A stretch of 64,000 nt of DNA. Origin: Bispira polyomma. Its lineage: Eukaryota. Position 1 is the first letter of the stretch. Each line of letters starts with the position of its first letter. Shown piece after piece: positions 25,634 to 49,509 of the stretch. The notes under the pieces were generated by a model. The model saw nothing but the letters and a program-made list of their open reading frames with translations. It was not told the DNA's origin and searched no databases. Position numbers and translations under genes: made by a program. The stretch is from positions 52,142,001 through 52,206,000 of the forward strand of contig OZ287750.1 in assembly GCA_965649765.1 (NCBI GenBank). Reading direction: 5' to 3'.

Positions 25634-25777
25634 GGCCCCAAGGGATCCCAGGGAGAGGAGGGCCCAGCAGGACGTGGGGGGAAACCCGGCCCACAAGGGG
25701 TTCCTGGCACACCCGGATTGGATGGCGTGCCCGGCATTGTGGGTCCTAGGGGAGAAATCGGGCTTCCAGGAGAACGG
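25634..25777 (+). CDS. Collagen exon 12 (144 nt) GPKGSQ...GLPGER
   Basis: tgccag| ... |gtaggt; 16 triplets. Confidence 0.96.
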
Positions 25778-26728: not shown

Positions 26729-26782
26729 GGAGCCAAAGGAGATGAGGGAAAAGAGGGCAAGAAGGGGAGTACAGGAACTCCT
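26729..26782 (+). CDS. Collagen exon 13 (54 nt) GAKGDEGKEGKKGSTGTP
   Basis: ttgtag| ... |gtaagt. Confidence 0.95.
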
Positions 26783-26804
26783 GTAAGTATATAGTGTACT
26801 AGTG

Positions 26805-27822: not shown

Positions 27823-27916
27823 GTGTTGTTAATCAGTACATTTCTCTATGGGTCATTGTATCAGATTTATTGTCTCATGACAACCTTTACCATCCTCCAC
27901 ACTTTGTTAATTACAG

Positions 27917-27970
27917 GGAGACAAAGGAGTCAGAGGTCAAACAGGATTGCCTGGACTCATTGGGATAAAG
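27917..27970 (+). CDS. Collagen exon 14 (54 nt) GDKGVRGQTGLPGLIGIK
   Basis: ttacag| ... |gtgagt. Confidence 0.95.
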
Positions 27971-28410
27971 GTGAGTCTGGATTAGCAGAATTAAAGATAA
28001 TAATGATTGAAGCATTTATAGAACACCAAATTAATGAAAACATCCCCTAGGCGCTAATATCCAAAAAAGGATGGTCTAGCAATAATAAGAAGATCAACAG
28101 TGAGTCTTGATAAACAGGTTGTTTGCATTGAGCGGCACAAGCTAGACATATTGCAATGTCAGAAAAAGTACAGTAGAACATCTAGTATCCAAACACGTTG
28201 GAGTGATCATCTGTTCAGATACGAGAATGTTTGTATTTTCACATATAGTTAATTCATCATAATAACAAAACATGTGCTGCCGTGCTGTCAGTAACTCTTG
28301 AGGGATGATTTTGATTGAAGAAACCACATCATGAAAGCTTCTTATGATGCAAGTGATAACATTTGCTGTAATAGGTACCTTGACCTCTATTGACTTCTTG
28401 TTTGTTCCAG

Positions 28411-28473
28411 GGTGATGAAGGTAACGAGGGAGCACGTGGGGAGAGAGGTCCAATCGGTCCTAGAGGGGCTAAT
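28411..28473 (+). CDS. Collagen exon 15 (63 nt) GDEGNEGARGERGPIGPRGAN
   Basis: ttccag| ... |gtaagt. Confidence 0.95.
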
Positions 28474-28862
28474 GTAAGTATTTGACACACGCATACAGGG
28501 ACACACATATACATACACACAGGGAAATACAGGGACACACATACACATACAGGGACCACGTGGGCAGAGATCCAATCTGATATAGGTGGGGCTAACATAA
28601 GTATACAGACACACGCATATAGGGACACACACACACATACACACAGGGACAGACAGGAAGGGACATTCACACATACAGGGTCCAATATGACCTAGGGGGC
28701 CTAATGTAAGTATACAGACACACACATATAGGGAAACACATGTATATACACACAGGGAAATACAGGGACACACACATGGGGAGAGGTGTAGTCTGACCTA
28801 GGGGGGCCTAACATAAGTATACAGACACAGGGACACACAGGCATACATACAGACACATACAT
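28474..28862 (+). repeat. Three degenerate copies of exon 15 3' end + donor + (CA)-rich spacer
   Basis: ccaat..cctagggggcctaa(tg/ca)taagtatacagacac at about 28570, 28682, 28795. Confidence 0.85.
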
Positions 28863-29185
28863 AGCCCTTTGCTTATTGCCTGGAAGTGCAAGGCATTATA
28901 ATATATGACATTTGATCGTTGCTTATTACTACATCGATCATGAAAGTAAACAATGACAGTTGTGAAGATTATTCTGAATGACTTTTTTAGTGAAAGTTTA
29001 TTATTTCAGCTTCCCTAGTATATAACTTTAACAATAGAGTGGATCATGTTTTTGTTACTGTCTAAGTTCAGTACATTTTCATATTTGTTTTTTATAACTG
29101 GACTCTCAGTGCCTTCTTACTTTTGATTTGTTGTGTCATCAAATCCCCTACACAGTGTCTCACTTCAATCTCTGTGTGTTTCCAG

Positions 29186-29257
29186 GGTAATCCAGGTATT
29201 CCAGGACCTCCAGGTGTGATGGGACCAATGGGGCTGAGTGGACCACCAGGACCAGCG
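29186..29257 (+). CDS. Collagen exon 16 (72 nt) GNPGIPGPPGVMGPMGLSGPPGPA
   Basis: ttccag| ... |gtaagt. Confidence 0.95.
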
Positions 29258-29289
29258 GTAAGTATTGTAAAATTACCATGATTCTAGAC

Positions 29290-29690
29290 TGATTACACGT
29301 TCTTCAAATGTCAACCTAATCACACCTCAACTTCAAGAGACTCCTTCAGCTCCCAGTTAAAAAATTTGAATTTAATTCAAAATTGGCCTGGTTACATACA
29401 AAGCTCTTAAATATAGTCAACCAGTATATTGTTAAAGATACGTTCAACTCTTACACATCTCTCAGGAACATATCAGGCGCAGTTGTCCAAATACAAGTGT
29501 CCTTAGTACTTTACCAAGTCTTGTACCTACTATTTACTCCCTCTTTTTGGGGAATTATTTACCTTTTAGTTGATCCTATCTCTTAGTTACTTCAATCTTT
29601 TTTGCATCAGCCTTCCATACATATTATGCCGTCCCTCCTTTGTGGTAACATTTCTTTGGATTGCTGATGATTGTAATAAAAATGTATAGG
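29290..29690 (+). mobile_element. Degraded L2/CR1 LINE 3' end
   Basis: Broken reading ITPQLQ..LQLPVK..IQNW/FKIGLVTYKALK resembles the L2 ORF2 C-terminus. Confidence 0.55.
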
Positions 29691-30073
29691 TAAAAGTGGT
29701 TGGGTGATAAATGAAGTTTTATTTGGGGGTATTGGTGCCAAAGAATAGGATTTGAGTACCATTGTGTCATGAGCGGGTACCCAGCAGACCGGGGTACTTA
29801 ATTGTTGAGATCTCTTGTCAAAATAAATTTGTGGATCCCCAGAGTTTCAGTGGTCTGTCTGTCTCTGTATAACCATTGATCCCCCATGGTTTTAGAAATA
29901 CCGGAAGTGCGCATCGAACACAAAAGCTGTGCGTGCGCAATTCGTAGCCATACTTTATCTGGGAAAACAGATCACATATAAATAGTTCCGTCAGTAGCTA
30001 CAAATATAGTTCACAGTAAGTTTGAAAATATCTTATTTTTTTGCTTTAAAATATACTGTTGTCAATCTTCTAA

Positions 30074-30226
30074 TAGAAATAAAGTACACAGGCTTGTACT
30101 TTATTGGCGAATAAAGAACAGCCTGCCGGCATAATGAACTCGGGCCTATCAGCCCTGGTCCATTATTCCGCCCTAAGTGAGTCCTTTATTTGTCAATAAA
30201 ATGCTCGCTCTTTATCTTTATTTCTA
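30074..30226. repeat. 153-nt imperfect palindrome (hairpin MITE-like)
   Basis: tagaaataaag/ctttatttcta, tttattggcgaataaagaac/gtcctttatttgtcaataaa, ataatgaactcgggc/gccctggtccattat pair symmetrically. Confidence 0.75.
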
Positions 30227-30229
30227 CAG

Positions 30230-30802
30230 GATATTGGTCTGATGATCGGAAGCTACACCAGGTTCAATTCCCGGTACCGACCACTAGGTTCATTTGGTGG
30301 TATAACATCCTTGGGCAAGATGTCAATACCAGTTTGCCTAGTGGCTTGGATGACCACATAAAATGGCAGTCTTCTGTCACTAAGTACTATCTCCAATGGC
30401 AGATTAAAGGTATTTAGGGACGTCGATAAATGGTCATCCTCAAGTAAGCCTCAGCGTCCACAGTGGCTGCCGGGGGCCGCGGTGGCCTAGTGGTTAGCAA
30501 GCATGGCGCTTCACAATCACTGGTCCCTCACCTCTGGGCAGCGTGAGTTCGAATCCCGTCGATGCCTATGTGGGAAAGGCGGTAGTTCCTTACTGTGGGC
30601 CGCTGGTTTCTCTGCAGAACCTTGACCGACTGTATGCAGTGTTTCCCCCAGCGTGTCCAACTACCCGTCCCAATATAACCTACTAAAAGGTACTAGAGTG
30701 GACGTTAAATATCCAAATTCAAATTCCACAGTGGCTGCCCATGAAGAAGCGCATTTGAAATGACCCTATGCTGTATAAGTGTGCTATAATAGATGTCATA
30801 TT
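30230..30802 (+). mobile_element. tRNA-derived SINE family C (host), interrupted by a family A SINE
   Basis: Matches the reverse complement of 52530-52836 on both sides of the 30472-30724 insertion. Confidence 0.8.
30472..30724 (+). mobile_element. tRNA-derived SINE family A, best-preserved copy
   Basis: A-box TGGCCTAGTGG, B-box GTTCGAATCC, (AAATTC)n tail, 15-bp TSD TCCACAGTGGCTGCC (30457-30471 / 30725-30739). Confidence 0.92.
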
Positions 30803-30831
30803 TTAACTGCTGATGTTGTTGTGTATTTCAG

Positions 30832-30858
30832 GGACCCCCAGGACCTGCTGGCCCAGCT
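30832..30858 (+). CDS. Collagen exon 17 (27 nt) GPPGPAGPA
   Basis: tttcag| ... |gtaagt. Confidence 0.92.
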
Positions 30859-31401
30859 GTAAGTACTGATCTGTGGCTGTATACTCTCTATAATAATCAC
30901 GAGCTCTACTCACACTTAGAGCTCAAATAGAAGATGTCACTATCTTAAAGGAAGATACATACATTCTTACTACATGTATTCGAGTTGAGCACTGAAAGCT
31001 CTATTAAAATGAATGGTCACAAGTATGGGTTATGTACATGTACAGGAGTTACATATAGTCTTCATTTAAGTTATTTCTCTGTTTAATCTTTAGTTTCTTT
31101 GAAGAATATGTGTTTCTGAAGACCATCAATACTACTTTGAGGGATTTAAAATATAGAGAAATTGAATCTGGTTGAGTCTGTAGAAATGCTTTAAAAGAAA
31201 TCAAATATAATTCAATCAGTCATTTGGACCACAGATATACACTAACTTCAAGATATTGTTTAATTTTCTGTATGTAATCCCACACACACATACACAAAAA
31301 AATAATTAAGATAAGTTTTGAAAAAAAAATTGCTGCAAGTAAAACGAAAGTTTTCTGAAAGTACTACACACATATACCCTTTTGTTTACTGTTTTGTTTA
31401 G

Positions 31402-31464
31402 GGTGAGATTGGTAATATCAACAATCCATCTGATGGCGGTAACTTTGGACCACACGGACCCCCA
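31402..31464 (+). CDS. Collagen exon 18 (63 nt) GEIGNINNPSDGGNFGPHGPP (interruption)
   Basis: gtttag| ... |gtaagt. Confidence 0.92.
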
Positions 31465-32764: not shown

Positions 32765-32797
32765 GGTCCAGCAGGAGCTTTGGGACCTCCAGGAATG
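32765..32797 (+). CDS. Collagen exon 19 (33 nt) GPAGALGPPGM
   Basis: ttttag| ... |gtatgt; ends mid-triplet and is completed by the P that opens the next exon. Confidence 0.94.
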
Positions 32798-33519
32798 GTA
32801 TGTACATCTATGTGGTTTAAATGAATATAAATATTCAAGTGTTTTGTAACATAGCCATTAAAACTCAATGTCAAGATAGTGTACTTAATTCACGAGAGTT
32901 TGCTTTAGTCTATATAACCACTGCAGCTTCTAATGACCTTTTGATCAGACCTTATTAAATATTTATTTTTATACAAACATTAACAATGGTAAACTTTAAT
33001 ATTAGACAAAAATAGTGTTAACACAGCTTTTAAAGATATTCTTTTATGGTAACATCACACAAATTTGATACCTTTGTACAAGCATCCATATATATATATA
33101 TATGAATAATGGTAAGATGGAGCGTCTCTTATATTATGGCCATAATAATACTAATAGACCTGGCACAAAATACAATCTCTATAACCACTACTTTAGAAAA
33201 CATGTTTTATTATCAATGACTGTTTTCCAAGATGTTCTTTTACTGTATATAAAGTGGGAAAGCAACACAAAACATCCCTCTTAGATAGTTCCACTTGAGT
33301 ATCTTTTCTAAATTCACCGGTTAAGTGTATTTTATGGGAAAACTAAATTGTACAAAATAACATTAAATTCTTTCCTTTTTTTCAGTGGTGTATTTTGTAT
33401 GTACCTTTGTGTTACATGACTGCTGTCTACTTATCATCTATTTTATCTCTTAGTAATCTTAACAGAGAAAATCATCTCTCCACCTCTTAAGCTTCTTACC
33501 CAAAAAGCTGGCTGCTTTA

Positions 33520-33790
33520 AAAAACATCAAAGTTGCAGCATCTGCTGAAAGGAATAGTCTTCCTACTAGTCTTCACACTGAGACAATGATCACAGGCTTT
33601 AGGAAATAGTTCAAAACACATCTGTATCAACTCGCTTTTCCGCTTAACATTCGTTTGCTGGTCATGACTGAAATTCTGATCATGAACCATTTCTCCTATG
33701 GAACTATTCTTTTGCATACTGATTGGAATGTGCATAACAGAGGATGCCTGGTCATCGATTGTGGCACTATAGAAGTAAAAACATTAATTA
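33520..33790 (+). mobile_element. Degraded L2-like LINE 3' end
   Basis: VAASAERNSLPTSL ... GFRK*FKTHLY resembles the WNSLP...FK..LKT.L terminus. Confidence 0.5.
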
Positions 33791-33823
33791 CCAGTTATAC
33801 AGTATTTATTTGCTGTTTTTCAG

Positions 33824-33970
33824 CCTGGTGTCCGAGGGCCACCTGGTGAATCAGGCCCTTCTGGGGTGCCTGGAAATCCAGGGGTACACGGAAACCAGGG
33901 ATCACCAGGTCCCCCCGGATCCAGGGGGTTAACAGGACAGCCAGGGAAACCAGGGATGCCGGGCTTACCT
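33824..33970 (+). CDS. Collagen exon 20 (147 nt) PGVRGPP...GMPGLP, end of COL2
   Basis: tttcag| ... |gtaagt; P plus 16 triplets. Confidence 0.96.
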
Positions 33971-34530
33971 GTAAGTTGTCTTGAAGTATTTGGAGGGCTG
34001 CTTGTTCTAACAATAGAAATCAGATGGAAATCTTTGTGTGTCAGAATCAATATCATTTGGCTGTTGACTGTTCAATAAGGGTATTAGTCACGCAAACACG
34101 ACTATTTTCTGTTTGAAGATGTGTTCTCTTGGCTACAAGTGCTTATATTTTTAAGGCAGAATATTGGAATAAGGACGGATTTTCAAAAGCAGAATCCTGG
34201 GGGTAAATTTTCAGTACTGTCTCATCCTTAGTTTTTATGATTCAAAAAATATGTCACCCATAAATGTTGTAACCATAACTACTGAACAATGATGTTCAGT
34301 TAAATTCAGTTTGAATTGGTAAGACTTCTAGCTTTATATTACCTAGATTATATATGTTGCTTTGTTGCGCCTTAAAATCTGGTAGTACAAAGATTGAGTG
34401 CCATTACAAAATTGATTAGATTAGATGACGGTTGCATTTGTTAATTAGATTAGATAACGGTTTGAATTGGTAAGACTTCTAACTTTATCTCACTAAGATA
34501 ATATATGTTGCTTTGTTTCTATGGTAATAG

Positions 34531-34585
34531 GGACGTAGCGTACCACTCTCCAAAGTCAGGGATATCTGCCGTGAAATACTCAGAG
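34531..34585 (+). CDS. Collagen exon 21 (55 nt) NC2 helix GRSVPLSKVRDICREILR(E)
   Basis: taatag| ... G|gtaaga; supplies the phase 0 to phase 1 bridge required between exons 20 and 22; amphipathic with one Cys. Confidence 0.9.
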
Positions 34586-35402
34586 GTAAGATCACATATA
34601 CTTCACAAATTATTTATTTATTTATATATCAGACATATTTATATGACTTACAAAACAATTGGAGGAAAATGGAATATATTTATTCAAAATTTATGCGAAA
34701 ATAAGAAGCATTTTATGAATATCTTTTTTGATTCACATAGTTCGTCTAATCATTGTCAAACCTAGAGAAGGAATAAAATACCAAGAAAGTCTAATACATT
34801 CTACAATTAACAAGTCAAAGTGAACATGGTTTCACTTTGACAATAGCTTGACTCACAATGGTCCAATGGCTTGACAAAACTCTAGAATAGATTACCCTCT
34901 TTTGTAAAGGGCCTCTAATAAAACACTTTAATCTATTTATAGCATGTTGAAAACCAATCTCTTCCTCTGTGATTTTTATCAGGCACAGCCTGATGTTGTT
35001 TTTATTCTGAAAAGGGCGCCACTATTAAAATGGCGCCACTATCTTAGAAATAACATGTAATGTCTTCATGGATTGCTTGGAAGCAATTGACCCATCCAAA
35101 CTGAGGGGTATCAGATTTGCCTAAGTACCCTGCCATCCTAGAAATAATATGTAAGGCCTTCATGGATAGCTTGGAAGCAATCGAAACTGAGAGGTGTTTA
35201 TAGTAGCCATATCAACGTTAGTGCTTTTCACATTTTGCGCCTTTGTCTTTTTAAAAAGACAGTTCTTGTTGGGCTGATTATATTTTGTTGTCAATCTTTT
35301 TATGTGTCTGGATTTTGGAGAAAAAAAAAACACTGATTTCAGAATTGTCTGTTAGAAGTTAGAATTGTGTACTTGTTGATTGATGACTTTGTGTACCCAC
35401 AG

Positions 35403-35504
35403 AACAATTAGAGGAGTTAACACGGGATCTCATAGGCCCACCCGGACCCATGGGGGTGGGCAAACCTGGCAAACAAGGTCATCCGGGGATGCAGGGTATT
35501 CCAG
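35403..35504 (+). CDS. Collagen exon 22 (102 nt) (E)QLEELTRDLIGPPGPMGVGKPGKQGHPGMQGIP(G)
   Basis: ccacag| ... G|gtgagt; phase 1/1. Confidence 0.94.
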
Positions 35505-35976
35505 GTGAGTAGGGTGGAGGCATCACTAACTGGTCAATCTGTATGTGACACTAATAGTATGTGTCTTCAAAATCTTCATTTCAGTTTCCCCACCTTTAAA
35601 ATCTCTACATTATATTGTAAAAAATTACTTTTAAAAGCCTTTACTTTTAGATTCAAGACCTTTGTTGTAGGTATTACCAATCTCTGCGTGACATTGACTG
35701 TGTACTTTATAAAGTGTAAGTCTTAAAGCCACGGCGATTAGCCTAGAAATTGATGCATCAGTCGACCATATGGCGTTGAGTCTGGATGTATTATTCCCAA
35801 ATAGGGTCAAATTTTAGTATGCACCCGAACACTCATTGTTGCCCATGAAAAATATCAATAATAGATATAATTGTAACTTTAGGTTCATATTACACTGAAA
35901 TACGAAAAATATAATTAATAGATAAAATTGTAACTTTATGTTTATATTACATTTAAATTTGAAGTTATACTGTGGG

Positions 35977-36231
35977 GGGGTGCGCGGTGGCCTAGTGGTT
36001 AGCAAGCATTGCGTTCACAATCACTGGTCTATAACCTCTGGGTGGCGTGAGTTCGACTCCCATCGATGCCTATGTGGGAAAGGTGGTAGTTTCTTACGGT
36101 GGGCCGCTGGTTTCAGTGCAGAATCTTGATCAACTCTATGCAGTGTTTCCTCCAGCATTTCCAACTACCCGTCCCAATATAACCTAAACAGGTACTAGAG
36201 TGGACGTTAAATATCCCAATTCAAATTCAAA
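35977..36231 (+). mobile_element. tRNA-derived SINE family A
   Basis: Homologous to the 30472 copy; 11-bp TSD TATACTGTGGG (35966-35976 / 36232-36242). Confidence 0.9.
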
Positions 36232-36748
36232 TATACTGTGGGAAAGATCAAACACAGCTGAGTTTAGGTATGTATTAGGACTTAATTTATTTGAGAGTAG
36301 GCGATCATCAAAGCCTTACTTCAGCTTGCGGCTCTGGTAAATCTAATCTGCAGTTAAAAACATGTAGTATTTTGATTATATTTGTAAATACAATGGCAGA
36401 GTAAAAATGTTAAATTTAGTGAAAATACCTGCAAATCTTGTACAAAAACTCAGCCGTACAAATTATAACTTGCATGGTTTCAGTTAATTTGAGTTTTGTA
36501 CATGTTATATAACTTGTACAACTTTGGGCTTGTCAAAACAATAATTTTTCAGTCTATTTTGTGCTCAGTTTTTGTACAACAATCAAAAATCCTAACTTGT
36601 ACTTCACACATATATGAGAAAGAAATTACCATGTAACTGCTCTAGATTTCATGTTACAGAACACATATTTTACTACTTTTCACATGCTAAGTGTACAGTA
36701 CATCTGGTGCAACCTATAAGTCTTGACCCCCTTCTATTTTTGTCTTAG

Positions 36749-36838
36749 GTGACCCTGGACCAGCAGGCTTGCCTGGAGAGCGTGGTCTGATGGGTATTCC
36801 TGGACCCCCGGGCCCACTTGGACCCCAAGGAAGGATAG
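36749..36838 (+). CDS. Collagen exon 23 (90 nt) (G)DPGPAGLPGERGLMGIPGPPGPLGPQGRI(G)
   Basis: tcttag| ... G|gtgagt; phase 1/1. Confidence 0.95.
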
Positions 36839-36859
36839 GTGAGTTGATTGTCTTATCTA

Positions 36860-37170
36860 AATGACAGGTATCCCTGAGATCAGGCAAGGACAGGTAAGTT
36901 TATTGTATCAGTTTTGATGGATATTCTTAATATACCCCTGAATTCCCGGTCCAAAGAAGGATAAGGCAGTAGGCTATTCCTAATGATACGCCTGATAACT
37001 TCAGGCCCTCTGAGACCCCAGGGAATGACAGGCATGTTGGTTGTCATATTGGTATGATGTATTTCCCAACCCCTTAGCCTTACAGGACCCCTGAGAATGA
37101 CAGGTTAGTTTGTTGTATTTGTCTGATGGGCATGCCCAGACCTCACATTTATCTGGTATGCCAGGGAACA
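36860..37170 (+). repeat. Degenerate copies of exon 23 3' half + donor
   Basis: Recurrent tgatgg.tattc..gacccc.g.gaa.gacag|g(t/c)..gt. Confidence 0.7.
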
Positions 37171-37532
37171 AAAGGTTTGCAGTTCAACAGTTCCATTGTT
37201 CCTTGAAGGTTTTTTTATATTCTAATGACTAGTGTTTGTCATCAAAATACTTATGCGGTTCCAAAGTACAATGCTGTATGGTCAAAGATTAAACATAGTT
37301 TTTAACATAAAAAATATGCACAATAGTGATAATCATAATTTAGTCAGTCAATTTGTGACACACAAGAAACAGAAAAAGTTTACGGTGTAACAATGTGATG
37401 CTGTCTGTGGAATGTCTTGTGAATAATTTAGAGAACCTTGTTACTAGACAGTGTAAATAAATCCTGAGCCCTTCCCCTCCCCATCCTTTGCACATGTAAT
37501 TAGACCCTCACACCCAAGCCCTGTGTTTTCAG

Positions 37533-37610
37533 GAGAGCGTGGGGACAAGGGTGAGCGTGGACTGACTGGTTATGGGGACGAAGGGCCGCGTGGTATCCAG
37601 GGACCTCCAG
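37533..37610 (+). CDS. Collagen exon 24 (78 nt) (G)ERGDKGERGLTGYGDEGPRGIQGPP(G)
   Basis: tttcag| ... G|gtataa; phase 1/1; contains RGD and the GY imperfection. Confidence 0.94.
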
Positions 37611-39818
37611 GTATAACTATGACAACTGTTATCCTTAGTAATGCTCTCTGCATGCCTTGACGCGTGTCACCACTCATGAATGTATATAGATATATATTTA
37701 GTGTTATAATGCCTGTTTGTGTTTAGTTTTGTGTTACAGTATGGTTAATATGGTGTGTTGGTTTCAAGACATCTAATCACATGATGGGTTATTTCTTTCT
37801 TGTTATTTATAAATATTTCGCTAATTACTTGTTTATGTTGTGTCCACTCCCCGGGGGTCCTAAATGCCCCTTAATACACGCACAACCTTATACTTAATGT
37901 GTGCTGTCACCCCCCATTGCACAACTTTATATATGTATATACATAGATATTTATGCACTGCTAATTTCCCCGCTGTGATGTGTAGAGAAATATATACAAG
38001 TTTATTTACAAGCTTGAAATATAATTGTTTTTTTAAATGGCATTCTAGAAATTCACTTGCACATGTACATTCAATTTGATAAAAAAATTGTATGAGCGCA
38101 TGTACATGTGCAGTGTCATGCCTGACCTTATTTTGACCTTTGACCTCAGAGTAGGACCTTGACCTGAAAAATCGATACTAGACTATATCCCAGTAACTAT
38201 ACTTTCCGCATGATGAAAACATAATATTGTTAGAGGCAGTCGATGTAAAGCATATCCTATTCGGCTTTGATTTTGACCTATGACGTTGCAGTAATAACCT
38301 TGACCTTTTTCGAGTCTATACGTGTGTACCTACACACAAATCTAAAGTTGGGAACTCAGATGATTTCCCTTACACTTTTTCATTGTTCACCAGTTTCACC
38401 TAAAGCCTATCGGCTTTCGGCATCTCTGATATTATTTTCTGCCATTTTGCCAATCTTTATAATATAGTCCCAGATATATAGTAAAGCTATGATTTGCAAA
38501 CCGACAGGAATTTAATGCACCAGTTTTTATGTTGTGCTTTTATGTTAATTCATCGAGTATGGGTGATTTATTGATGAATTTGATATAAAAAAGTTAGCAT
38601 TGAGTAGATTTGAGAATTTGCCCGATTTCTCTACAACTCACAATGCCCTACTTTATGTATCTCACTAGTGCCTGTATGATGTGTCATTATATCCCCATAT
38701 AGTACACATACAGACATACAGGAGTACTGTATTAACCTTGTTTTTCCCACATATCTGTGTTTGTGAACGTCATCAAAAAGCTTAGCTTGTCTGAGTTTTA
38801 TTTCTTTTCGTATTTGGTTCACTAATTTTGCTCTCCCCGTTTTTTTCAGGGTGATTTCTTTTTGGTGTATGACATTTAACAAAGTCCATTCAGTTTATAT
38901 TTGGGAGTATGTTTGTTGTAATAGTGTAATCACATGATTGGTGTGTCAAAATCATGTGATTAAGTCGCCACATATTGCACGCCAACATTTTAGAGATTAG
39001 AGTAACTTTAGATATCATATCAATAATATTTAAAACTTTCTTGTTGAGAAATAAACTGAGCCACATGTTAAATAGTTTGTCAGATTTCCTGTAATGTATA
39101 GTCATATTTATGTTAAATTTAAATATATAAATCTTAAAGTTACTTGCACTAATGTTAATCATCTTCTAACTATCAGTGATGTTCCCATAATAGTATCAGT
39201 TAAGTTTATCTATATGTTTTATTCAGTCACTCTTCTATATGGTCACATGATTTAGTAAATCAAGCCAGTATAATCATTTGACCATGTCTGCAGGTAACTT
39301 CTCAAAAATCAGTGATTGTTTAGTTATTACTAGTTAAGTTATTGTATGTTTTCATAATTTGGGGATATTTACAATAATAAAACAAATATATATGAGGTCT
39401 TTATTGTCCACAACTATTATAATAATGAATTCTTATGGTACTTCAATTTGGACGATAACTTGTAGGATATGTATTATATGTCACATATGTGATCACACAT
39501 AGTATATCATGGGTACTTTTTGTATTAGCCCTTGAGACAATAATAATAACAACTGGAAAATATTATCCAATATTAATGTAATATCTGCAGCACTTCACAA
39601 ATGTAGTTTTTTTATATGGTTGGGAGGAGGGCATAGCTATATATAGTGTTTTTGTCACTAAGTTATGTGCATCACTTAACTGTAACAGTGACTGCAGTTG
39701 TCATGGTTACCAAATGTTAGCATCCTTGTCTGAAGAGAGTGACTGTCTTTAAAGCTCAGTAAATTCCTGTAAGTTTCTCTCTGGTGTCTATTTTGTCTTG
39801 CTCTGTGGCTTGTGGTGG

Positions 39819-41787
39819 AGTGATACTTGATCCAAAGTCATACCCTAGGAAGTAGAGGTCATACTTTGTTCAAGGCCATACCCTAGGAAGTAGAGGTGAT
39901 ACTTGATCTAAAGGCATACTCTAGGAAGTAGAGGTTATACTTGGTTCAAGGGCTTACCTTAGGAAGTAAAGGTGATACTTGATCCAAAGGCATACTCTAT
40001 GGAGTAGAGGTCATACTTAGTTCAAGGCCATACCCTAGGAAGTAGAGGTGATACTTGATCTGAAGGCATACTCTATGGAGTAGAGGTCATACTTTGTTCA
40101 AGGGCTTACCTTAGGAAGTAGAGGTGATACTTGATCCAAAGGCATACTCTATGGAGTAGAGGTCATACTTTGTTCAAGGGCTTACCTTAGGAAGTAGAGG
40201 TCATACTTGGTTCAAGGGCTTACCTTAGGAAGTAGAGGTGATACTTGATCCAAAGGCATACTCTATGGAGTAGAGGTCATACTTTGTCCAAGGGCTTACC
40301 TTAGGAAGTAGAGGTCATACTTGGTTCAAGGGCATACCTTACGAAGTAGAGGTGATACTTGGTCCAATAGCATACCTTAGGAAGTAGAGGTGATACTTGG
40401 TCCAAGAGCATATCTTAGGAAGTAGAGGTAATACTTGGTCCAAGGGCATACTTTAAGAAGTAGAGGTGATACTTGGTCCAAGAGCATACTTTAGGTGCAG
40501 AGGTGATACTTGTTTAAAGGGCTTACCTTAGGAAGTAGAGGTGATACTTGGTCCAACAGCATACCTTAGGTAATAGAGGTGATACTTGGTCCAAGGGCAT
40601 ACTTTAAGAAGTAGAGGTGATACTTGGTCCAAGAGCATACTTTAGGAAGTAGAGGTGATACTTATTTAAAGGGCTTACCTTAGGAAGTAGAGGTGATACT
40701 TGGTCCAACAGCATACCTTAGGTAATAGAGGTCATACTTAGTCCAAGGGCTTACCTTAGGAAGTAGAGGTCATACTTGGTTCAAGGGCATACCTTAGGAA
40801 GTAGATGTGATACTTGGTCCAAAGGCATACCGTAGGAGGTAGAGATCATACTTGGTTCAAGGGCTTACCTTAGGAAGTAGAGGTGATACTAGTTCAAAGG
40901 GCTTACCTGAGGAAGTAGAGGTGATACTTGGTCCAACAGCATACCTTAAGAAGTAGAGGTGATACTTGGTCCAAGAGCATACTTTAGGAAGTAGAGGTGA
41001 TACTTGGTCCAACAGCATACCTTAGGTAATAGAGGTCATACTTGGTTCAAGGGCTTACCTTAGGAAGTAGAGGTCATACTTGGTCCAAGGGCATACCCTA
41101 GGAAGTAGAGGTGATACTTGGTCCAAGGGCTTACATTAGGTAATGGAGGTGATCCTTGGTCCAAGGGTTTTACCCTAAGAAGTAGGGGTCATACTTGGTC
41201 CAAGGACATACCCTAAGAAGTAGAGGTCATACTTGGTCCAAGGGCATACCCCAGGAAGTAGAGGTCATACTTGATCCAAGTGCTTACCCTAGGAAGTAGA
41301 GGTGATACTTGGTTTAAGGGCATACCCTAGGAAGAAGAGGTGATACTTGGTTCAAGGGAATACCTCAGGAAGTAAAGGTGATAATTGGTCTAAGAGCATA
41401 CCTTAGAGGTGATACTTTGTTTAAGGGCATACCTTAGGATGTAGAGGTCATACTTGATCCAAGGCCTTACTTTAGGAAGTAGAGGTGATAGTTAATCCAA
41501 GAGCATACCTTAGAAAGTAGAGGTGATACTTGGTCCAACAGCATACCTTAGGTAATATAGGTGATACTTGCTCCAAGAGCATACCTTAGGAAGTAGAGGT
41601 GATACTTGGTCTAAGGGCTTACCTTAGGAAGTAGAGGTGATACTTGGTCCAATAGCATACCTTAGGAAGTAGATTTGATACTTGGTCCAAGGACATACCT
41701 TAGGAAGTAGGGGTCATACTTGGTCCAAGAGCATACCTTAGGAAGTAGAAGGGATACCTGCTCCAAGGGCATACCTTAGGAAGTAGA
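39819..41787. repeat. 38-bp minisatellite, about 50 copies, with higher-order alternation
   Basis: Consensus ggaagtagaggtgatacttggtccaagggcatacctta. Confidence 0.95.
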
Positions 41788-42213
41788 CTAAGTTTGTCTG
41801 TGTATTGAAAGGGGTGTTGGAGGGAGAATAGGTATTGCTGTAAGTTTTTATGTAGGAATTTCAGAATATGAAGGGCGTGGGTGAGGGCGAGACAGGTGAA
41901 CAGGTGTTTAGAGTTGTTGGGGTGATAGATTTTCAATACTTGAGGTGAGTACAAGATCATCAAGCACTCACTTTTCTGTGTAAGTTTTGGTTATGGACTG
42001 GTTATAAAGTCTGACCATCTGGGAAGTCTACAGCTGTTGTGTTTATTAGGCAGAGCAGGGAATTTAGGTTAAGGGGGGGGGGGGATCAATAGTTATGATG
42101 GACTTCAGTATAAGCGGAGTAAAGACAAGTGTCCACTCGCCACAGAGCAGGTCCCCCAACCCACACACACACACATGTCTTCAGTCACCTGATTGCATGC
42201 TTATTCTTTGTAG

Positions 42214-42246
42214 GGGATGAGCTAAGCTTTTTGATTGGATCCAGAG
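42214..42246 (+). CDS. Candidate alternative 33-nt exon (G)DELSFLIGSR(G); read-through to 42260 gives ...GSRGDCL*
   Basis: ttattctttgtag| ... GAG|gtgact; phase 1/1, open, restores the Gly codon at both junctions; three TGCATG within about 130 nt. No transcript evidence. Confidence 0.4.
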
Positions 42247-43107
42247 GTGACTGCTTATAGGTTTACTCTGTCTTGGTTTTTCTGCATGCATCTAATGCTT
42301 GTGTTAGTGGGGTAGTGTCTGCATGAGATAGAAAAAAACATGACACCCCCTTTGGTGATTGCGTGTGTCACTAGCCTGTTCTTGTATGATTTTGAATATC
42401 ATCCGGCGATCTCGTTCATAAGTAGATTTGTAACAGATATTGGGGATGAAATGATTAATTTCCTTGACTAATGATACATCAGTTAACCCCTTGCTTTGCT
42501 TGTAGAGCTTAGCTTTTGTATAAACCTGGACTACTTGTCAACAAAGTGGTAATAATAGAAGTTTATTAAACACAGTTGATTGGAAACATCACAAATGTTC
42601 TAGAGGTATGTCCATAAACAAACTAGTATTGTTTACCCACGATCCCTCAAAGAACAACCCTTTGTGGCCTGATTGGTTTAAGGGTTAGTATGATGAGGGT
42701 TTCAACTTGATTTAACCCCTGGTAAAGCCATAATGGACATTGGGGGAATAGCATCCTTTGGCATGATGTAAACACTGTTGCCTTCTTGCGGTGAACAATG
42801 TCACATGTTTGTAGGACTACATCCCTTCTTGGTGAACAAATGTCTTAGAGGATGTATTTCCAATTTATCTGTTAGTTTATAAATATTCAACATAAATTTA
42901 TTAAAGCTGTACTATTGTTGTTTTGCTTATGTTGCTTTGTTGCTACATTTGATGGATAGAATTCACAGCGGCCACATTTTTCTGTGTATTCTATTGTGAG
43001 CACTATCTTTGAAGGTGTTTTCATGTTCAAGTACAGTGGCACATCAACATTGAAATTAAAAATCTAATAATGTTTTTGTCTTATGCACTTGCAATATTAT
43101 ATATTAA

Positions 43108-43357
43108 CCCTTTTGTGACTGAGGAATTAATATCACACTGTACTAACAAAGATTCTGAGGTATCAGGTTGCATATAGCTGGAGTCAAAAAAGAATACAGC
43201 ACAGACAACTGCGGCATTTCATAAGGCCTCATGAAACATCATTTGCTAGACTTAGTACTGATACATCGAATACAATAGGGAATACCGCAGTCAAAGTAAA
43301 CAATAATATGGGGAATATAAGACAGGGTGTCAATTGATGAACATTGGTGCAAAAGGG
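43108..43357. mobile_element. piggyBac-like MITE
   Basis: TTAA|CCCTTTTG ... CAAAAGGG|TTAG; interior homologous to the flanks of the 5621-6163 insertion. Confidence 0.55.
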
Positions 43358-44409
43358 TTAGTATGTCATATCTAAACAAAGTTTCAACTTTTGCTGTATC
43401 TCCTTAAGTTTTGTGAAGTCATTTTGATCCAACCTTAGACTCTGTACCCTTCAGCAAACTCACAGCACTCAAGAAACCCCATGTTAATTGATAATGGTAA
43501 TCCTCCGACATATATACTTTCCCCTTATTTAGGTATGTGTCTCATCTATCCACAATATTGTTGCTATTGCTGGTGTCTACTTTCTTTACTTAACTAATAT
43601 ATCTACCAGTTGCAGTTATTTTCCTCAAGGCCATTAAACTTCTTGAGAGGTACACCAATGTTTAGGGTCCTCAGTGGCGTAGTAGTAACACACTCGCCTC
43701 TCACCTCTGCAGCCGGGGTGTCATTCACAGCCCATACACATGCATGTGGGATGAAGTTGGAAGTAGACTTGCTGAAGGCTGGCTGATTGCAGTACAGAAC
43801 ACCTCCACAAATTACGGTGTGCTGCTTTACTCTACCAATATATACTGCCCTTCGCAATATAATACTGAATTATGGAGAGCATTATTAAATTAAAAATTAA
43901 CCAAAATGAAAAAGTTTACCAGTTTAAATGGATTGAGAGTAATTTTACATCAGCAATTTAAGTATATTGGTTACATATTCAACATAGACCACTTGTAGCA
44001 AGTTTAGATGAGCTGTTGTGTGAAGAGAACCCTTTGAGATATGTACACCAATAGTTTTCTGTGGGTTCAGTTATTTGTATTACAAACTCTAGAACTCGTG
44101 AGTAATAGTTTTTACTACAGCCATGCCTCCATTACCCTGCTGTATTTCACATGTTTACACTAACAATACCATACAACATCAGACTGGGAATGTGGCCTGT
44201 TTACTGAGATCTCTCATTTACACTGTCAACTCATTGCACAAATGGACAGTTATTCAGCTGCTCCTCTTGCTTGCTGTGTATTTTAAAGATAACACTTATC
44301 CACTAACCGTCACCCAGCTACCCACCCACCTAAACATTCCCTAATTTAGGGCCAGAGCTTCATAGAATGTGTTAAATGTACTCGATAAGTCTAGGTTTGT
44401 GGTTGCCTT

Positions 44410-45203
44410 TCTACTAGTATACAGATCTGCACCCTGCGTTTTAGTAGTGGCCGATTCCATTGGTATACAGACCTGTACCCTGGGTTTTAGTAGTTTCCCA
44501 TCCTACTGGTATACAGAACTGCAACTGGTGTTTTAGTAGTTTCCCATTCTACTAGTATACAGATCTGCACTCGGTGTTTTAGTAGTTTCCCATTCTACTA
44601 GTGTGCAGATCTGCACCCGGTGTTTTAGTAGTTTCCCATTCTACTGGTATACAGATCTGCACTCTGTGTTTTAGTAGTTTCCCATTCTACTGGTATACAG
44701 AACTGCAACTAGTGTTTTAGTAGTTTCCCATTCTACTAGTATACAGATCTGCACCCAATGTTTTAGTAGTTTCCCATTCTACTGGTATACAGATCTGCAC
44801 TCTGTGTTTTAGTAGTTTCCCATTCTACTGGTATACAGAACTGCAACTAGTGTTTTAGTAATTTCCCATTCTACTAGTATACAGATCTGCACCCAGTGTT
44901 TTAGTAGTTTCCCATTCTACTGGTATACAGATCTGCACTCTGTGTTTTAGTAGTTTCCCATTCTACTGGTATACAGAACTGCAACTAGTGTTTTAGTAAT
45001 TTCCCATTCTACTAGTATACAGATCTGCACCCAGTGTTTTAGTAGTTTCCCATTCTACTGGTATACAGATCTGCACTCTGTGTTTTAGTAATTTCCCATT
45101 CTACTGGTATACAGATCTGCACCCTGTGTTTTAGTAGTTTCCCATTCTACTAGTGCATAGAATCTGATCTGATCCTGCATTTTAGTAGTCTCCCACTCTA
45201 CTG
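44410..45203. repeat. 46-bp minisatellite x about 17 with a 3-unit (138-bp) higher-order period
   Basis: ttttagtagtttcccattctactggtatacagatctgcactctgtg; period 44531 to 44577. Confidence 0.93.
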
Positions 45204-46974
45204 TACTGGTTTTATTGACTCCATTTCTGGTGCTAATTATTCAAGATAAGATATGCAGATTCCAGTAAATGTAAATTGCTTGTCGAAATGTCAAATCTCT
45301 GATTTAGCCAAGTCAAAGCAGACCACCTCTTGTAAATTAGTACATATTTAACTTTCACTAAATGCCTTGATCAAAATTTCTTTCATGTGAACCTACTCAT
45401 GAAAGACCACCTGTTTTACAAATATCACAGTTTTGGTTGCCCTATTCTCCCTTTATCAGCAGATAAAGTCCTGTGTATCAAGTATATCAACTACCCTTCC
45501 ATCTGCGAAAGCTCAAACAGAACTATCAATTTTTTTCTTCAATAGAAAACTCTGAACCTCTTTGTTTGGACAAGGCTTATTTTCCCTAGCTGCCTTATAA
45601 TCCCCGTGTTAAGATAATTGATAAAATATACTTGGATTGTTGTACATTAGAATACACCATTACTCTATTTGCAGAGATTAAACACCATATGCAGTGAAAT
45701 TTAGATAACAGACTTATTATCTCTGACACACACACCTGTGTGAAACGTCTTTCCTTCTGTCAATCAAGAAATTTACCTAAACGTTTTTTATTTCCATTGG
45801 CCAATCAAGGTCAAATTGTATTTCACTGGATTTTGTCTTGGTAATCAGCTGCAGTCATTGCAGGAACTCCTGTGTATCGTTTACACCCGGCAAGGTTTAC
45901 CATCTGCTTACATCTTCTCTTTCAGTTATTGGATACTCTTTGATGTTTATCTCAGATATCACCACATTTGGGTCAATGAGGCTACTATATATTTGAGTTA
46001 CTCACTAAAAGCTCTATTAAATACACCTATTGGTAACTTATAGTTACTCCTCAGTTAACTCAGTTATTCCCATTAATAAGGAAATTGTTCTATGTGGTAT
46101 TTGAGTTTAAGCAAGACTTTAAGTTTGAGACTTTTGATATTCTAAAAATTTTCTATAATCTAAAACTTAAGCTTGTGCATAAACTCGGTTAGATTTCCTA
46201 CTTAACGGCTAATAATCTAGACCTATCGCCATTTCTTTTAGTGGAGCTTTCGACTGGTTCCCAATGCTATAGTTACGTATAGTTTATTTTTATTGACCTG
46301 GTTACTGATAAATAATAACAAATACACTTTCTTTGGTGTAGATGTTTACTTTTATTTGTTATTAATTAGTGCAATAATGAGTGTTATTCTTGTCAAATTT
46401 GTGTCTCTTACGCGATCAAAAACCAGCACATGAGGATACATGCCAGATTATTGGCAATACATATTTTGAGATTATGGTGAGTGTAAGTTTAAGACTTCGA
46501 TACTCACAACCCCTAGGGTCAAGGTTATGTACAATGTGTTTGAAACCAAGGTTTAAATGTGCTACAGCTTAGGGTTTCCTTTATAAATTGGAGAAATCTG
46601 CTTCATATGCTTTAAGTATCTGCTGCATGCAGTTGGTATTAGTAAAACCTGTATATGTAATTGTATGTATCAGTACAGAATATAACGTTAATCCTCCTCC
46701 TCGCGGCGGCAAGGCAATTACATTCCTGCATGTTGGTGTATGTACGTACATGTTAACACTGTTCTGTGTGTAGTTTTACTAAAAATTTACAGGAATAAGT
46801 CAACTTCCACAGATATCTAAAGTGTGAACTGTCTACCCTGCAGGATTTAATGAATCAATGATTCAGTAATCTTCTTGATTAAGTAGACATCATGGCTAAA
46901 AATATGTATATATCATACAATAATATACATGTATGTTTATCTACATCACAGTTGTAAAATAGTTTGTACTCCGA

Positions 46975-47230
46975 CACCACAGATATGAAATAGTCCATAT
47001 TCTGTAACAGCAAAGATATGAAATAGTCCATACTCTGACATCACAGATATCAAATAGTCCATACTCTGACATCACATAAAAATAGAATAGTCTGTATTAT
47101 GAGATCACAGATTTAAAATAGTTCATACTTTGACATCACAGATATAAAATAGTCCATACTACAACACCACAGCTATAAAATAGTCCATACTCCAACATTA
47201 CAGATATGAAATAGTCTGCAGTCTGACATA
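46975..47230. repeat. About 31-bp minisatellite
   Basis: cacagatatgaaatagtccatactctgacat. Confidence 0.85.
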
Positions 47231-47653
47231 TTTAAAGTATTTCTGTAAGACAATAGATATAAACTATCAGTAAGTCGACAATCATTGTTCGTTGATGTAC
47301 TCTCAAGTTTCTTTTATACAGTGGTTTAGGTAGCATACATTTGATGAAATGCTTCTTACAGTGTTGCACATAGAACTTCAAATAGCCTCAAGCTCTCACA
47401 GATTAAACAGTAATTTAATCATTTAATACAGATTTGCTTTAACTTGTGTTTCTCACTGTCAGTTGATGTGTTTATACTTTTATAACTACGGTATATATCA
47501 CTTGTTTGTCCATATCTAATCCCTTTTTATCTGTATTACCATAGCTATTCTGGGATAAAACACATATATTAAGTTCCCACCAGTCAATCATCTCTATCCA
47601 CCCCCATTTTTTTCGGGCCCTTGGTCACTCTCTATGTTTTTCTATTTTTACAG

Positions 47654-47853
47654 GAAGTCCAGGTAACCCAGGAATGGGACGACAAGGTCGGGCAGGTGAG
47701 CGTGGCCCCAGGGGTAGGTCGGGCCAGCCAGGCCCTCAAGGCCCACCGGGCAGCCCGGGAGCCCCGGGCACCTGTGACTGCGGGCTGAGCGCCCAGACTC
47801 AGTATGTCCAAATGATGGACCAAAGACAGAGGGAGAGTGTCAAGGGGCCTTAA
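47654..47853 (+). CDS. Collagen terminal exon 25 (200 nt coding) (G)[10 protein letters not shown]...[31 protein letters not shown]
   Basis: tttttacag|; phase 1; TAA at 47851-47853. Confidence 0.96.
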
Positions 47854-48194
47854 GAATCAAGCTAACTCACCCTACCCACACCACCACCACTTCTCAGCTT
47901 ACCCCCTAACCCCCAACCTCCCATTTTACCGCGTCTTTCAGCCCTCTCTCTGCTCCGTCTACAAGGTCACGTGACATAGAATTTGTTTTTATGGAGATTG
48001 AGCCTTGTAAGCTCTTCATTATATATATTTATAATTATACATATAGTATAGAATCACAGGGTATTAGTTGATATATATATTGACTTTTTTTCCGTTTTAT
48101 GAATTTAGATTTTGGGGATTTTGAATATTGTGTCACCCAGCACCTTAGAATTTGATATAATCAAAAATTGGCGCCAAACAGGTTTGATAAATGC

Positions 48195-48200
48195 AATAAA
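48195..48200 (+). promoter_or_regulatory. Candidate proximal polyadenylation signal AATAAA
   Basis: First AATAAA I found after the stop (overlapping pair AATAAATAAA). Confidence 0.4.
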
Positions 48201-49509
48201 TAAAATAATATTAGTCTCGATAAAATTTACATAGAGTACTAATTAGGAGCCATTTATAACGAATCTATCAGATTCCAGTGCAAAATTGATTTAACACCTG
48301 GTTCGCATGTCAAGCATTTTTACAGTGCGACAGTAACTATAAATACCAAACAAGCAGATATAGCGGGTTCCTGTTTCTGAGTCTAGATTAGTGTATCTCC
48401 AGTCACCAAGGAGATGACCTTGCCTTGTAGCAGAGAGGGGTCGTTGTTACTGCTCACTAAGTGTCTTTATAGTGTTTGTCGTGTTGGCTGAACATCCTGT
48501 ATATATTATACATGTAAATATCTATGTGCAAACTTCAGTGTGTGTGTGTTGTCGCTGCATGATGATAATTGTCTGCATTAGAATTTACAGCACACCATCT
48601 TTAGAGATGTGAGGAATCATAGATATAGCATAGTCTTTTTTAGTCAAATTATTATATTTGGGCCAGTCATGTGACCGTAGTGGTGTGTTAATTAATGCAT
48701 GGGTTAATGTCAGACAAGCCTACTACTACTAATGGTCTATCTCCTGTAACCGTTGCTGACTTGAGCTGAGAATTGAAAAATATGTAAATAAGGCCATTGT
48801 GACTGAAAGAGACTGCATGAGGACATTGAAGAACTATATGGGTGCATTGCTTGGTAAAAAAGCTTTTTATTAATGGCTGGCTCGTGCCCTTGCTTGTAAA
48901 CGTCTTGGCCTAATTTATATACATAGACGACCTTTCTGTGTACAGTTCTACACTTTATATACATTTTTTTCAGTAGTTTGTCAGAATCTAGCTTGTTAGT
49001 AGGTGTAATCTAACCTCTCTAGTTTGTTGTCATGGTGATAGAGCCTATATATATATATATATAGATCTGCTTGAGCTTCGTCTGTGTCTTGACTTCAGCC
49101 AGGGACATCTCATAATGAAGTGTTGTCCAGGGAGACAGACTTATAAATTATTTCCTAGAAACCAAAAAGGCAGCTAGCTCAAAGACCAAATTACCATGAC
49201 AACTGTGTCCCTTTAATGGTCTCTATGGCAACTACCTCTTGGTTTCTATGGCAACCAGTTCTTTGGCACATATCTGATATAGGTAGGTCTTATATGTGCA
49301 GGAAGTGTACAGTGCATTCAGAAACCAGAAAGTGTTCTGGAAACTTGGAAAATGGTATGAAATTAAAATTTACTGTTACCATTTTAAAGAGTTTGCAATC
49401 TGAGACTTGTTAATATGATGTGTACCATTCCAAGTTTTTTTTTTGCATGGTGCTGAATACATTGTACTAAATAGAAGACACTGTGATACAAACTGGTTGG
49501 TCTTCTCCC

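What the first reader, a model, noticed from the sequence alone, without database searches (positions are those of the whole stretch)
32765..47853. Collagen IX-like FACIT chain with vertebrate-type exon architecture in an apparently invertebrate genome
Seen: the last exons are 33, 147, 55, 102+90, 78 nt and terminal, with a split GM|P triplet and a switch from phase 0 to phase 1 at the 55-nt NC2 exon. COL1 has imperfection GY, 6 triplets, imperfection GM, then 11 triplets ending G-x-C, and NC1 ends VKGP*. Recalled, not searched: vertebrate COL9 genes have a 33-147-55-189-78 series, the same 6/11-triplet spacing, a Cys-bearing helical NC2 that drives trimerisation, and KGP-type ends (COL9A2, COL22A1). 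Inference: a true FACIT homologue with one extra intron in the 189-nt exon. If the host is a non-chordate, this matters for the age of a family best known from vertebrate cartilage and tendon.
Basis: partly seen in the sequence, partly recalled or inferred. Interest (0 to 1): 0.75.

Follow-up and report, generated by a model that had tools for sequence, protein, structure and literature searches.

The report
Invertebrate collagen IX-like FACIT gene
This stretch holds the predicted last 25 exons of a collagen gene, likely from a protostome invertebrate, whose tail has the layout of the fibril-coating (FACIT) collagens of human cartilage and shares two exact intron positions with human COL9A2; invertebrate relatives are already on record, so it mainly adds evidence that the family is likely older than reviews state.

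Summary
Observation confirmed. The seven exons (33, 147, 55, 102, 90, 78, terminal) end a longer gene: 25 predicted exons from 4398 to 47853 give one 634-residue frame; the 5' end lies outside the window and no RNA was listed. NC2, COL1 with its 6/11-triplet register and NC1 ending VKGP match FACIT collagens. Two introns sit exactly at the ends of human COL9A2 exon 30 (189 nt, from a paper); the other vertebrate exon sizes stay recalled. Best matches are arthropod 'collagen IX-like' proteins and a nemertean protein; a tree puts the gene with them, apart from 14 vertebrate rows, so the host is likely a protostome and the gene is not a COL9 orthologue in particular. The junction motif is C-X-C, not the vertebrate C-X4-C. 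Non-chordate FACITs are in print (sea urchin, acorn worm 2010; echinoderms 2023, with an oyster one as outgroup), and this scan noted an arthropod one on other DNA. Reviews still call FACITs a deuterostome or vertebrate novelty, and I found no paper using shared introns against that. New member of a known kind; interest 0.35.

The parts
4398..9007 (+). Predicted exons 1-4 of the window (4398-4460, 7025-7075 with a GC donor, 7685-7855, 8966-9007): collagen runs of 7 and 26 triplets and the short interruption before the long central helix. The gene continues upstream of the window.
9504..31464 (+). Predicted exons 5-18 (60, 54, 54, 54, 54, 63, 57, 144, 54, 54, 63, 72, 27, 63 nt; all phase 0): runs of 39 and 49 triplets and the start of a run of 24, broken by interruptions of 10 and 6 residues. 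Together 112 triplets, against 113 in vertebrate COL21 and COL9-like chains.
32765..32797 (+). 33-nt exon, phase 0, ends inside a triplet (GM|P)
33824..33970 (+). 147-nt exon, phase 0, end of COL2; Pfam Collagen E 4.6e-10
34531..34585 (+). 55-nt exon: first 18 residues of NC2, Cys at position 13 as in COL9A1 and COL9A3; following intron is phase 1 in a Glu codon, as at human COL9A2 c.1603|1604. No second copy of this exon in the window.
35403..35504 (+). 102-nt exon: rest of NC2, 3 triplets, an invertebrate-type imperfection, start of the 19-triplet run; followed by the intron that human COL9A2 exon 30 lacks
36749..36838 (+). 90-nt exon of COL1; following intron is phase 1 in a Gly codon, as at human COL9A2 c.1792|1793
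37533..37610 (+). 78-nt exon of COL1 with the GY imperfection; weak donor, followed by a 10,043-nt intron
47654..47853 (+). Terminal coding exon (200 nt to the stop): GM imperfection, 11 triplets ending G-T-C, second Cys two residues on (C-X-C), 25-residue NC1 ending VKGP
47854..48210 (+). Likely 3' UTR; first AATAAA hexamers near 48195-48206 (true end unknown, another AATAAA near 52391)
   Evidence: read from the sequence; not tested

Best explanation
The window holds the predicted 3' part of a FACIT collagen gene, likely of a spiralian (mollusc-, worm- or nemertean-type) animal, whose chains would be gathered and set in register by the helical NC2 segment and would likely coat collagen fibrils as collagen IX does. 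Shown: exon layout, NC2-COL1-NC1 sequence match, two introns shared with human COL9A2, grouping with protostome proteins. Inferred: (1) an N-terminal thrombospondin-type (TSPN) domain upstream of the window, as in its closest relatives; (2) three chains, probably identical, zip through NC2, which fixes the stagger of the long COL2 helix; (3) the Cys of NC2 and the two Cys at the COL1/NC1 junction form interchain disulfides, with a tighter C-X-C spacing than vertebrates use; (4) COL1/COL2 lie along fibrillar collagen and the N-terminal arm projects to bind other matrix parts. [quoted passage not shown]
For: One 634-residue frame over 25 exons. NC2+COL1+NC1 is 56% identical over 175 residues with one gap to a tick protein. 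The NC2 Cys lies 136 residues before the COL1-end Cys in the window, tick, beetle, nemertean and an unnamed protein, 135 in fish COL9A1. NC2 aligned without gaps to fish COL9A1 scores 38, reached by 1 of 10,000 shuffles; to tick, ant, beetle and nemertean 56-71, 0 of 10,000 each. The tick NC2 finds only collagen IX NC2 chains in the PDB (4 of 177,635 sequences at E up to 10; best E 0.027). NC2 of collagen IX is a helical bundle that selects chains and fixes stagger, with an interchain disulfide (PMC5126661). Both ends of COL9A2 exon 30 coincide with window introns. Tree: window with Tubulanus 94/93; invertebrate side apart from 14 vertebrate rows 97/95; window held with all vertebrates p-AU 0.032. 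The oyster FACIT in a published alignment has the same NC2 Cys and the same GVGKPG imperfection, whereas four echinoderm NC2s lack the Cys (read by eye). Relatives carry a TSPN/laminin-G domain.
Against: No RNA or protein evidence. The 5' end and TSPN domain are not in the window and no genome is held. The junction motif is C-X-C; 142 of 142 signature-positive rows in the vertebrate-or-unnamed set have C-X4-C and 32 of 37 invertebrate-type rows C-X2-C. The window's own first NC2 exon found nothing in the PDB at E up to 10 (20 residues only). The window+Tubulanus branch is unstarred, Tubulanus is a long branch, and the tree holds no echinoderm, hemichordate, amphioxus, tunicate, mollusc or annelid row. 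Window held with COL9A1 was not rejected (p-AU 0.073). Fibril binding is carried over from vertebrate collagen IX; flies that have this gene type (Bactrocera) are close to Drosophila, which is said to lack fibrillar collagen (PMC4448552), so the family need not always coat fibrils. Homotrimer is a guess from one gene per echinoderm; paralogues here were not counted.
Confidence: 0.7

Rival explanations
1. A true FACIT homologue, but from an invertebrate deuterostome (hemichordate, echinoderm, amphioxus or tunicate), where IX-like FACITs have been listed since 2010; it would then say nothing new about the family's age.
For: No deuterostome invertebrate row was in the tree. Echinoderm FACITs share the third imperfection and the 6/11 spacing. 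The acorn worm sequence in the supplement lacks NC2, so it could not be compared.
Against: NC2 Cys and the GVGKPG imperfection match oyster, not the four echinoderms read; nearest rows are nemertean and arthropod.
Confidence: 0.15
2. Same family and origin, but a different job: a basement-membrane, cuticle or skeleton-matrix organiser that does not bind fibrillar collagen, assembled as a heterotrimer or linked into networks through the spare cysteines.
For: The gene type persists in flies, a group in which Drosophila is said to lack fibrillar collagens. A homotrimer would have three NC2 Cys, one unpaired (inference). The C-X-C spacing is unusual. COL2 has two interruptions that vertebrate COL9 and COL21 lack.
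Against: COL1 register and total COL2 length (112 against 113 triplets) are kept between this gene and vertebrates, as expected if a periodic partner constrains them (inference).
Confidence: 0.12
3. A non-FACIT collagen (nematode-cuticle-like, or another interrupted collagen) that resembles FACITs by convergence, or a vertebrate COL9 gene.
For: G-x-y repeats align with any collagen; the canonical C-X4-C motif is absent; the Atlas's nearest clusters for the terminal exon were mostly chordate, but at a recognition value below its own threshold.
Against: The register signature is in 0 of 17 named non-FACIT rows; NC2 match and two exact introns; AU test against grouping with all vertebrates.
Confidence: 0.03

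Closest known systems
Protostome 'collagen alpha-1(IX)-like' proteins in public annotation (tick P0155, beetles P0161/P0210/P0274, ants P0156/P0157, mites P0214/P0275, nemertean Tubulanus P0278) and the Crassostrea gigas FACIT used as outgroup in PMC10381214
   Same: NC2 length and Cys, third imperfection after 3 triplets, 19/6/11 register, KGP-type end in most; 48-57% identity over NC2+COL1 for the 17 best
   Different: C-X-C instead of the usual C-X2-C; longer central helix than insects; their intron positions were not available here
Vertebrate collagen IX (COL9A1, COL9A2, COL9A3; NC2 structures 5CTD, 5CTI, 5CVA, 5CVB)
   Same: NC2 with Cys at position 13 (alpha1, alpha3), 6/11 spacing (COL9A1), both ends of the 189-nt exon (COL9A2), about 113 COL2 triplets, KGP end
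   Different: Heterotrimer of three genes; C-X4-C; no third imperfection; uninterrupted COL2; one exon of 189 nt where the window has 102+90
Vertebrate COL21A1 and COL22A1
   Same: Same COL1 end register; COL21 has the NC2 Cys and 113 COL2 triplets; COL22 ends VKGP. The only hit of the first search was a bird protein with a COL22-type end.
   Different: vWA domain at the N-terminus; C-X4-C; longer NC2; COL22 NC2 has no Cys
Echinoderm and hemichordate FACITs (PMC10381214; listed as IX-like in PMC3002383)
   Same: One IX-like gene with TSPN only, shortened Cys motif (GXCXXC), third imperfection, 6/11 spacing
   Different: Echinoderm NC2 lacks the Cys in the four read; Cys spacing 2, not 1

Membership tests
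FACIT collagens | Several triple-helical domains separated by short non-collagenous segments | tested here: met
   Runs of 7, 26, 39, 49, 24 triplets, then NC2 and COL1
FACIT collagens | C-terminal COL1 with two conserved imperfections (6 and 11 triplets; feature recalled, checked against supplement sequences) | tested here: met
   Same register as human COL9A1 (by eye); signature in 142 of 157 vertebrate-FACIT-named or unnamed rows, 0 of 17 named non-FACIT rows
FACIT collagens | Two cysteines at the COL1/NC1 junction | tested here: met
   G-T-C-D-C at the end of the helix
FACIT collagens | Exact spacing GXCXXXXC (PMC10381214) | tested here: not met
   Window has C-X1-C. Spacing varies outside vertebrates: 32 of 37 rows X2, 3 X3, 1 X1, 1 X0; the review accepts GXCXXC for echinoderm FACITs
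FACIT collagens | Helical NC2 trimerisation segment of about 30-35 residues between COL2 and COL1 | tested here: met
   Sequence match without gaps to fish COL9A1 NC2 (1 of 10,000 shuffles) and invertebrate NC2s; fold and trimerisation not tested
FACIT collagens | N-terminal thrombospondin-type (TSPN) domain | not testable with these tools
   5' end lies outside the window and no genome is held; present in relatives
FACIT collagens | No C-terminal propeptide (COLFI), C4, C1q or endostatin domain | tested here: met
   NC1 is 25 residues to the stop; Pfam finds only Collagen in the terminal exon
FACIT collagens | Association with collagen fibrils | not testable with these tools
   Needs tissue or binding data
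Collagen IX (COL9A1/2/3) proper | Orthology to a COL9 chain | tested here: inconclusive
   Free tree puts the window on the invertebrate side (97/95); holding it with COL9A1 rows costs 18 log units, p-AU 0.073; no COL9A2 or COL9A3 rows in the tree
Collagen IX (COL9A1/2/3) proper | Intron positions flanking the 189-nt exon | tested here: met
   COL9A2 r.1604_1792 maps to window introns after 34585 and after 36838, same codon and phase; numbering checked by hand with Arg640 and Gly565
Collagen IX (COL9A1/2/3) proper | Exons of 33, 147, 55 and 78 nt | tested here: inconclusive
   Sizes recalled; searches gave no coordinates. A synonymous COL9A3 c.1548G>A listed in a patient would fit an exon end at the start of NC2, but the paper does not say so
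Collagen IX (COL9A1/2/3) proper | Heterotrimer of three chains | not testable with these tools
   No genome to count paralogues

The most novel reading that the evidence does not exclude
[quoted passage not shown] An unnamed multi-TSPN protein with the same 39/49/24 triplet counts leaves open an even older origin.
Probability: 0.7. Interest if true: 0.5.

Novelty: new member of a known kind. Interest (0 to 1): 0.35.

Why it matters
Reviews read here list FACIT collagens among deuterostome or vertebrate novelties (PMC3002383; PMC3308698; PMC4448552). A likely protostome gene that shares exact intron positions with human COL9A2, beside arthropod, nemertean and oyster proteins with the same cassette, moves the family back to the bilaterian ancestor. 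It also offers a natural, probably homotrimeric NC2 with which to ask how the three-chain selection of collagen IX arose. The effect is limited: non-chordate FACITs are published, databases already name the arthropod ones 'collagen IX-like', and an oyster one was used as an outgroup in 2023.

Tried and rejected
No whole genome is held, so the 5' end and paralogues could not be sought. No RNA holder listed. Laying three DNA runs on 28300-38000 gave contigs identical to the window over seven of the ten exons there in the pieces listed, at low depth, with very high depth only at repeats; these runs may be the window's source, so this is no independent support. Search of the terminal exon alone gave 1 hit among 705 candidates. 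Metagenome scan: 6 loci, none with a FACIT end (L004 and L002 look like other animal collagens). An alignment of five exons on a tick scaffold was wrong and not used. PDB search with the first NC2 exon: 0 hits. Atlas search with the terminal exon: generic collagen clusters, low recognition. Rfam: 0 matches. No second NC2 exon in the window (of 11 candidate stretches only 34531-34585 fits), so the twin-exon arrangement of the earlier arthropod note is absent here. The first register parser was noisy and was replaced. Searches for COL9 splice coordinates: one search gave 2 papers, none, none relevant by title. Searches for an explicit protostome FACIT paper (listings only, 30 or fewer rows each) showed none by title; PMC2852846 has no mention of FACIT; PMC8072372 calls some planarian collagens FACIT-like only for having interruptions. 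Subscription papers are not in the library. No complex prediction was run: NC2 spans an intron and a stand-in from another animal would pass by likeness to solved structures.
Full report
What is in the sequence. The window is animal DNA, 36.8% G+C, CpG-poor, rich in minisatellites, with a high-copy short repeat. A six-frame scan found G-x-y runs on the + strand from 4398 to 47775. Reading the DNA and scoring splice sites gave 25 exons that join into one frame of 634 residues ending at TAA 47851-47853. The first 20 introns are phase 0, the last 4 phase 1. The gene starts upstream of the window; no genome is held and no RNA holder was listed, so splicing is predicted. The splice model was trained on these same sites; in its scan the only high-scoring candidates inside the 10-kb last intron was one 28-nt stretch without collagen character.

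Protein layout. Collagen runs of 7, 26, 39, 49 and 24 triplets, a non-collagenous segment of about 28 residues (NC2), then 3, 19, 6 and 11 triplets separated by three imperfections, the motif G-T-C-D-C and a 25-residue tail ending VKGP. The 39+49+24 runs add to 112 triplets; vertebrate COL21 and a COL9-like frog chain have one run of 113 there.

Family. The terminal exon alone found one protein, a bird chain with a COL22-type end. The representative search listed 150 hits, 5 of them FACIT-type ends. Four of the five (six sequences with cluster mates) read like genomic frames that enter the terminal exon at the same Gly as the window, with Ser or Thr just before it, as a phase-1 acceptor would give (inference), so this intron seems shared with other unnamed animals. 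Two wider searches brought vertebrate COL9/21/22 and arthropod 'collagen alpha-1(IX)-like' proteins and one nemertean gene. Against all 358 proteins then or later held, the NC2+COL1+NC1 part hit 353; the 18 best are 15 named arthropod rows, the nemertean and 2 unnamed rows; the best is a tick protein at 56% over 175 residues with one gap; the first vertebrate-type chain ranks 19th. For the whole 634 residues the nemertean isoforms and three unnamed multi-TSPN proteins lead. A register signature is present in 142 of 157 vertebrate-FACIT-named or unnamed rows, 21 of 33 invertebrate-type rows (4 are isoforms of one gene), 0 of 17 named non-FACIT rows and 0 of 150 hits; 2 short fragments were left out. 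The sets were fetched with this region as bait, so the positive rates are not family-wide rates. NC2 aligns without gaps to fish COL9A1 (score 38, 1 of 10,000 shuffles), COL21 (30, 1), COL22 (20, 27) and four named invertebrates (56-71, 0 each). The tick NC2 finds only collagen IX NC2 chains in the PDB, at modest E-values; the window's own first NC2 exon found none. Relatives carry a TSPN/laminin-G domain (Pfam reached its cut-off in 1 of the 5 proteins scanned).

Against strict membership: the second Cys follows after one residue. All 142 signature-positive rows of the vertebrate-or-unnamed set have four; of 37 invertebrate-type rows with the motif 32 have two, 3 three, 1 one and 1 none. The spacing is thus loose outside vertebrates, and a published review files echinoderm chains with GXCXXC as FACITs.

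Introns. A table in PMC13247170 gives human COL9A2 exon 30 as r.1604_1792, p.(Glu535_Lys597del): 189 nt, phase 1 at both ends; PMC11733291 lists the donor variant c.1792+5. Using the COL9A2 sequence in the supplement of PMC10381214 (counted by hand; Arg640 and Gly565 fall as), Glu535 is the 19th NC2 residue and Gly598 lies 66 residues before the COL1-end Cys. The window has phase-1 introns at exactly these two codons. Between them it has 192 nt in two exons, as the tick and nemertean proteins also have 64 residues there against 63 in fish COL9A1. The sizes 33, 147, 55 and 78 for COL9 are recalled and come from no call; searches did not supply them.

Host. The organism label is coded and the window holds no other gene that I could find. 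A tree of 30 rows chosen by me from the fetched set (20 triplets of COL2, NC2, COL1, NC1; 234 columns) puts the window with Tubulanus (94/93, not starred; Tubulanus is a long branch) on a side with 12 arthropod and 2 unnamed rows, apart from 14 vertebrate rows (97/95). Holding the window with all vertebrates gives p-AU 0.032, with the two COL9A1 rows 0.073. The tree has no root and no echinoderm, hemichordate, amphioxus, tunicate, mollusc or annelid row. By eye, the oyster chain in the supplement shares the NC2 Cys and the GVGKPG imperfection; four echinoderm chains lack the NC2 Cys. I put a spiralian host at about 75%, another non-chordate at 17%, an invertebrate chordate at 5%, a vertebrate under 3% (judgement).

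How it likely works. In collagen IX the NC2 segment is a three-helix bundle that selects chains and sets the stagger of COL2, with an interchain disulfide (PMC5126661); the junction Cys site is said to be needed for trimerisation and FACITs to link fibrils with other matrix parts (PMC10381214). The window keeps these parts and their spacing, so the same mechanism is the best guess. Homotrimer, TSPN arm and fibril binding are inferred, not shown.

What is known. PMC3002383 calls FACITs a deuterostome-side novelty (passages) and its supplement lists IX-like FACITs for sea urchin, acorn worm, amphioxus and Ciona, with all 14 mentions under deuterostomes or in a table head (its second file could not be searched). 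PMC3308698 and PMC4448552 treat them as vertebrate or chordate forms (one passage each). PMC10381214 reports one FACIT per echinoderm studied (passages), roots its trees on oyster or Nematostella, and its FACIT alignment holds an oyster chain with TSPN, NC2 and the same COL1 (I read 5 of the 7 parts of that file). PMC5897022 reports collagen IX in a sea cucumber (passages). PMC8072372 calls some planarian collagens FACIT-like (passages). PMC4678570 and PMC11766948 gave passing mentions; PMC2852846 none. Of PMC5126661 I read parts 1-2 of 4. Six searches (listings and abstract starts) showed no paper that argues a bilaterian origin of FACITs from introns; subscription journals are not covered, so such a paper may exist. 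This scan noted an arthropod collagen IX-like gene on other DNA.

Verdict. Real gene, true FACIT-family chain with one non-canonical motif, likely protostome. New member of a known kind. Its value is as intron-level evidence for an older origin than reviews state. Interest 0.35.

Noticed in passing
P0281, P0312, P0354 (unnamed JGI proteins): FACIT chains with several N-terminal TSPN/laminin-G-like domains and exactly the window's 39/49/24 triplet runs before NC2. Their animal group is unknown; if non-bilaterian, the family would be older still.
   Followed up: partly
window 7973, 11940, 28686, 37012, 37084: Decayed copies of an exon's 3' end and splice donor lie just downstream in 4 of 24 introns (21-23 of 30 bases alike); at 11888-11981 and 28427-28684 they form tandem arrays. 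Possible cryptic donors or a route to new collagen exons.
   Followed up: partly
window 8535-8791, 30473-30726, 35983-36228: A short interspersed repeat of about 250 bases, three copies at 87-90% identity, with depth some 10,000-fold or more above exon bins; its head looks tRNA-like by eye, but Rfam found nothing. Could help place the host.
   Followed up: partly
window 7025-7075: One exon needs a GC donor (GCAAGT) to keep the frame; the other 23 donors are GT.
   Followed up: no
window 39820-41787 and 44409-45151: Long minisatellites in the 10-kb last intron: 52 copies of 38 bases and 16 copies of 46 bases.
   Followed up: no
P0278 (Tubulanus): The nemertean FACIT model has a 608-residue Ser/Thr-rich and basic tail in place of the short NC1, and a 28-residue insert before NC2; real extension or annotation error not checked.
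   Followed up: no
P0191, P0199, P0307, P0284, P0285: Frog and shark chains named 'collagen IX-like' have a longer NC2 with three Cys and form their own starred branch apart from COL9A1, COL21 and COL22 rows: possibly a FACIT lineage absent from the mammalian set (not checked).
   Followed up: no
P0250, P0294, P0298, P0339, P0117: Junction Cys spacing varies among invertebrates: X3 in three dipterans, X1 in a butterfly model, X0 in one unnamed fragment.
   Followed up: partly
window 47854-64000: No further gene was found downstream; no frame of 120 residues or more looks coding there.
   Followed up: partly
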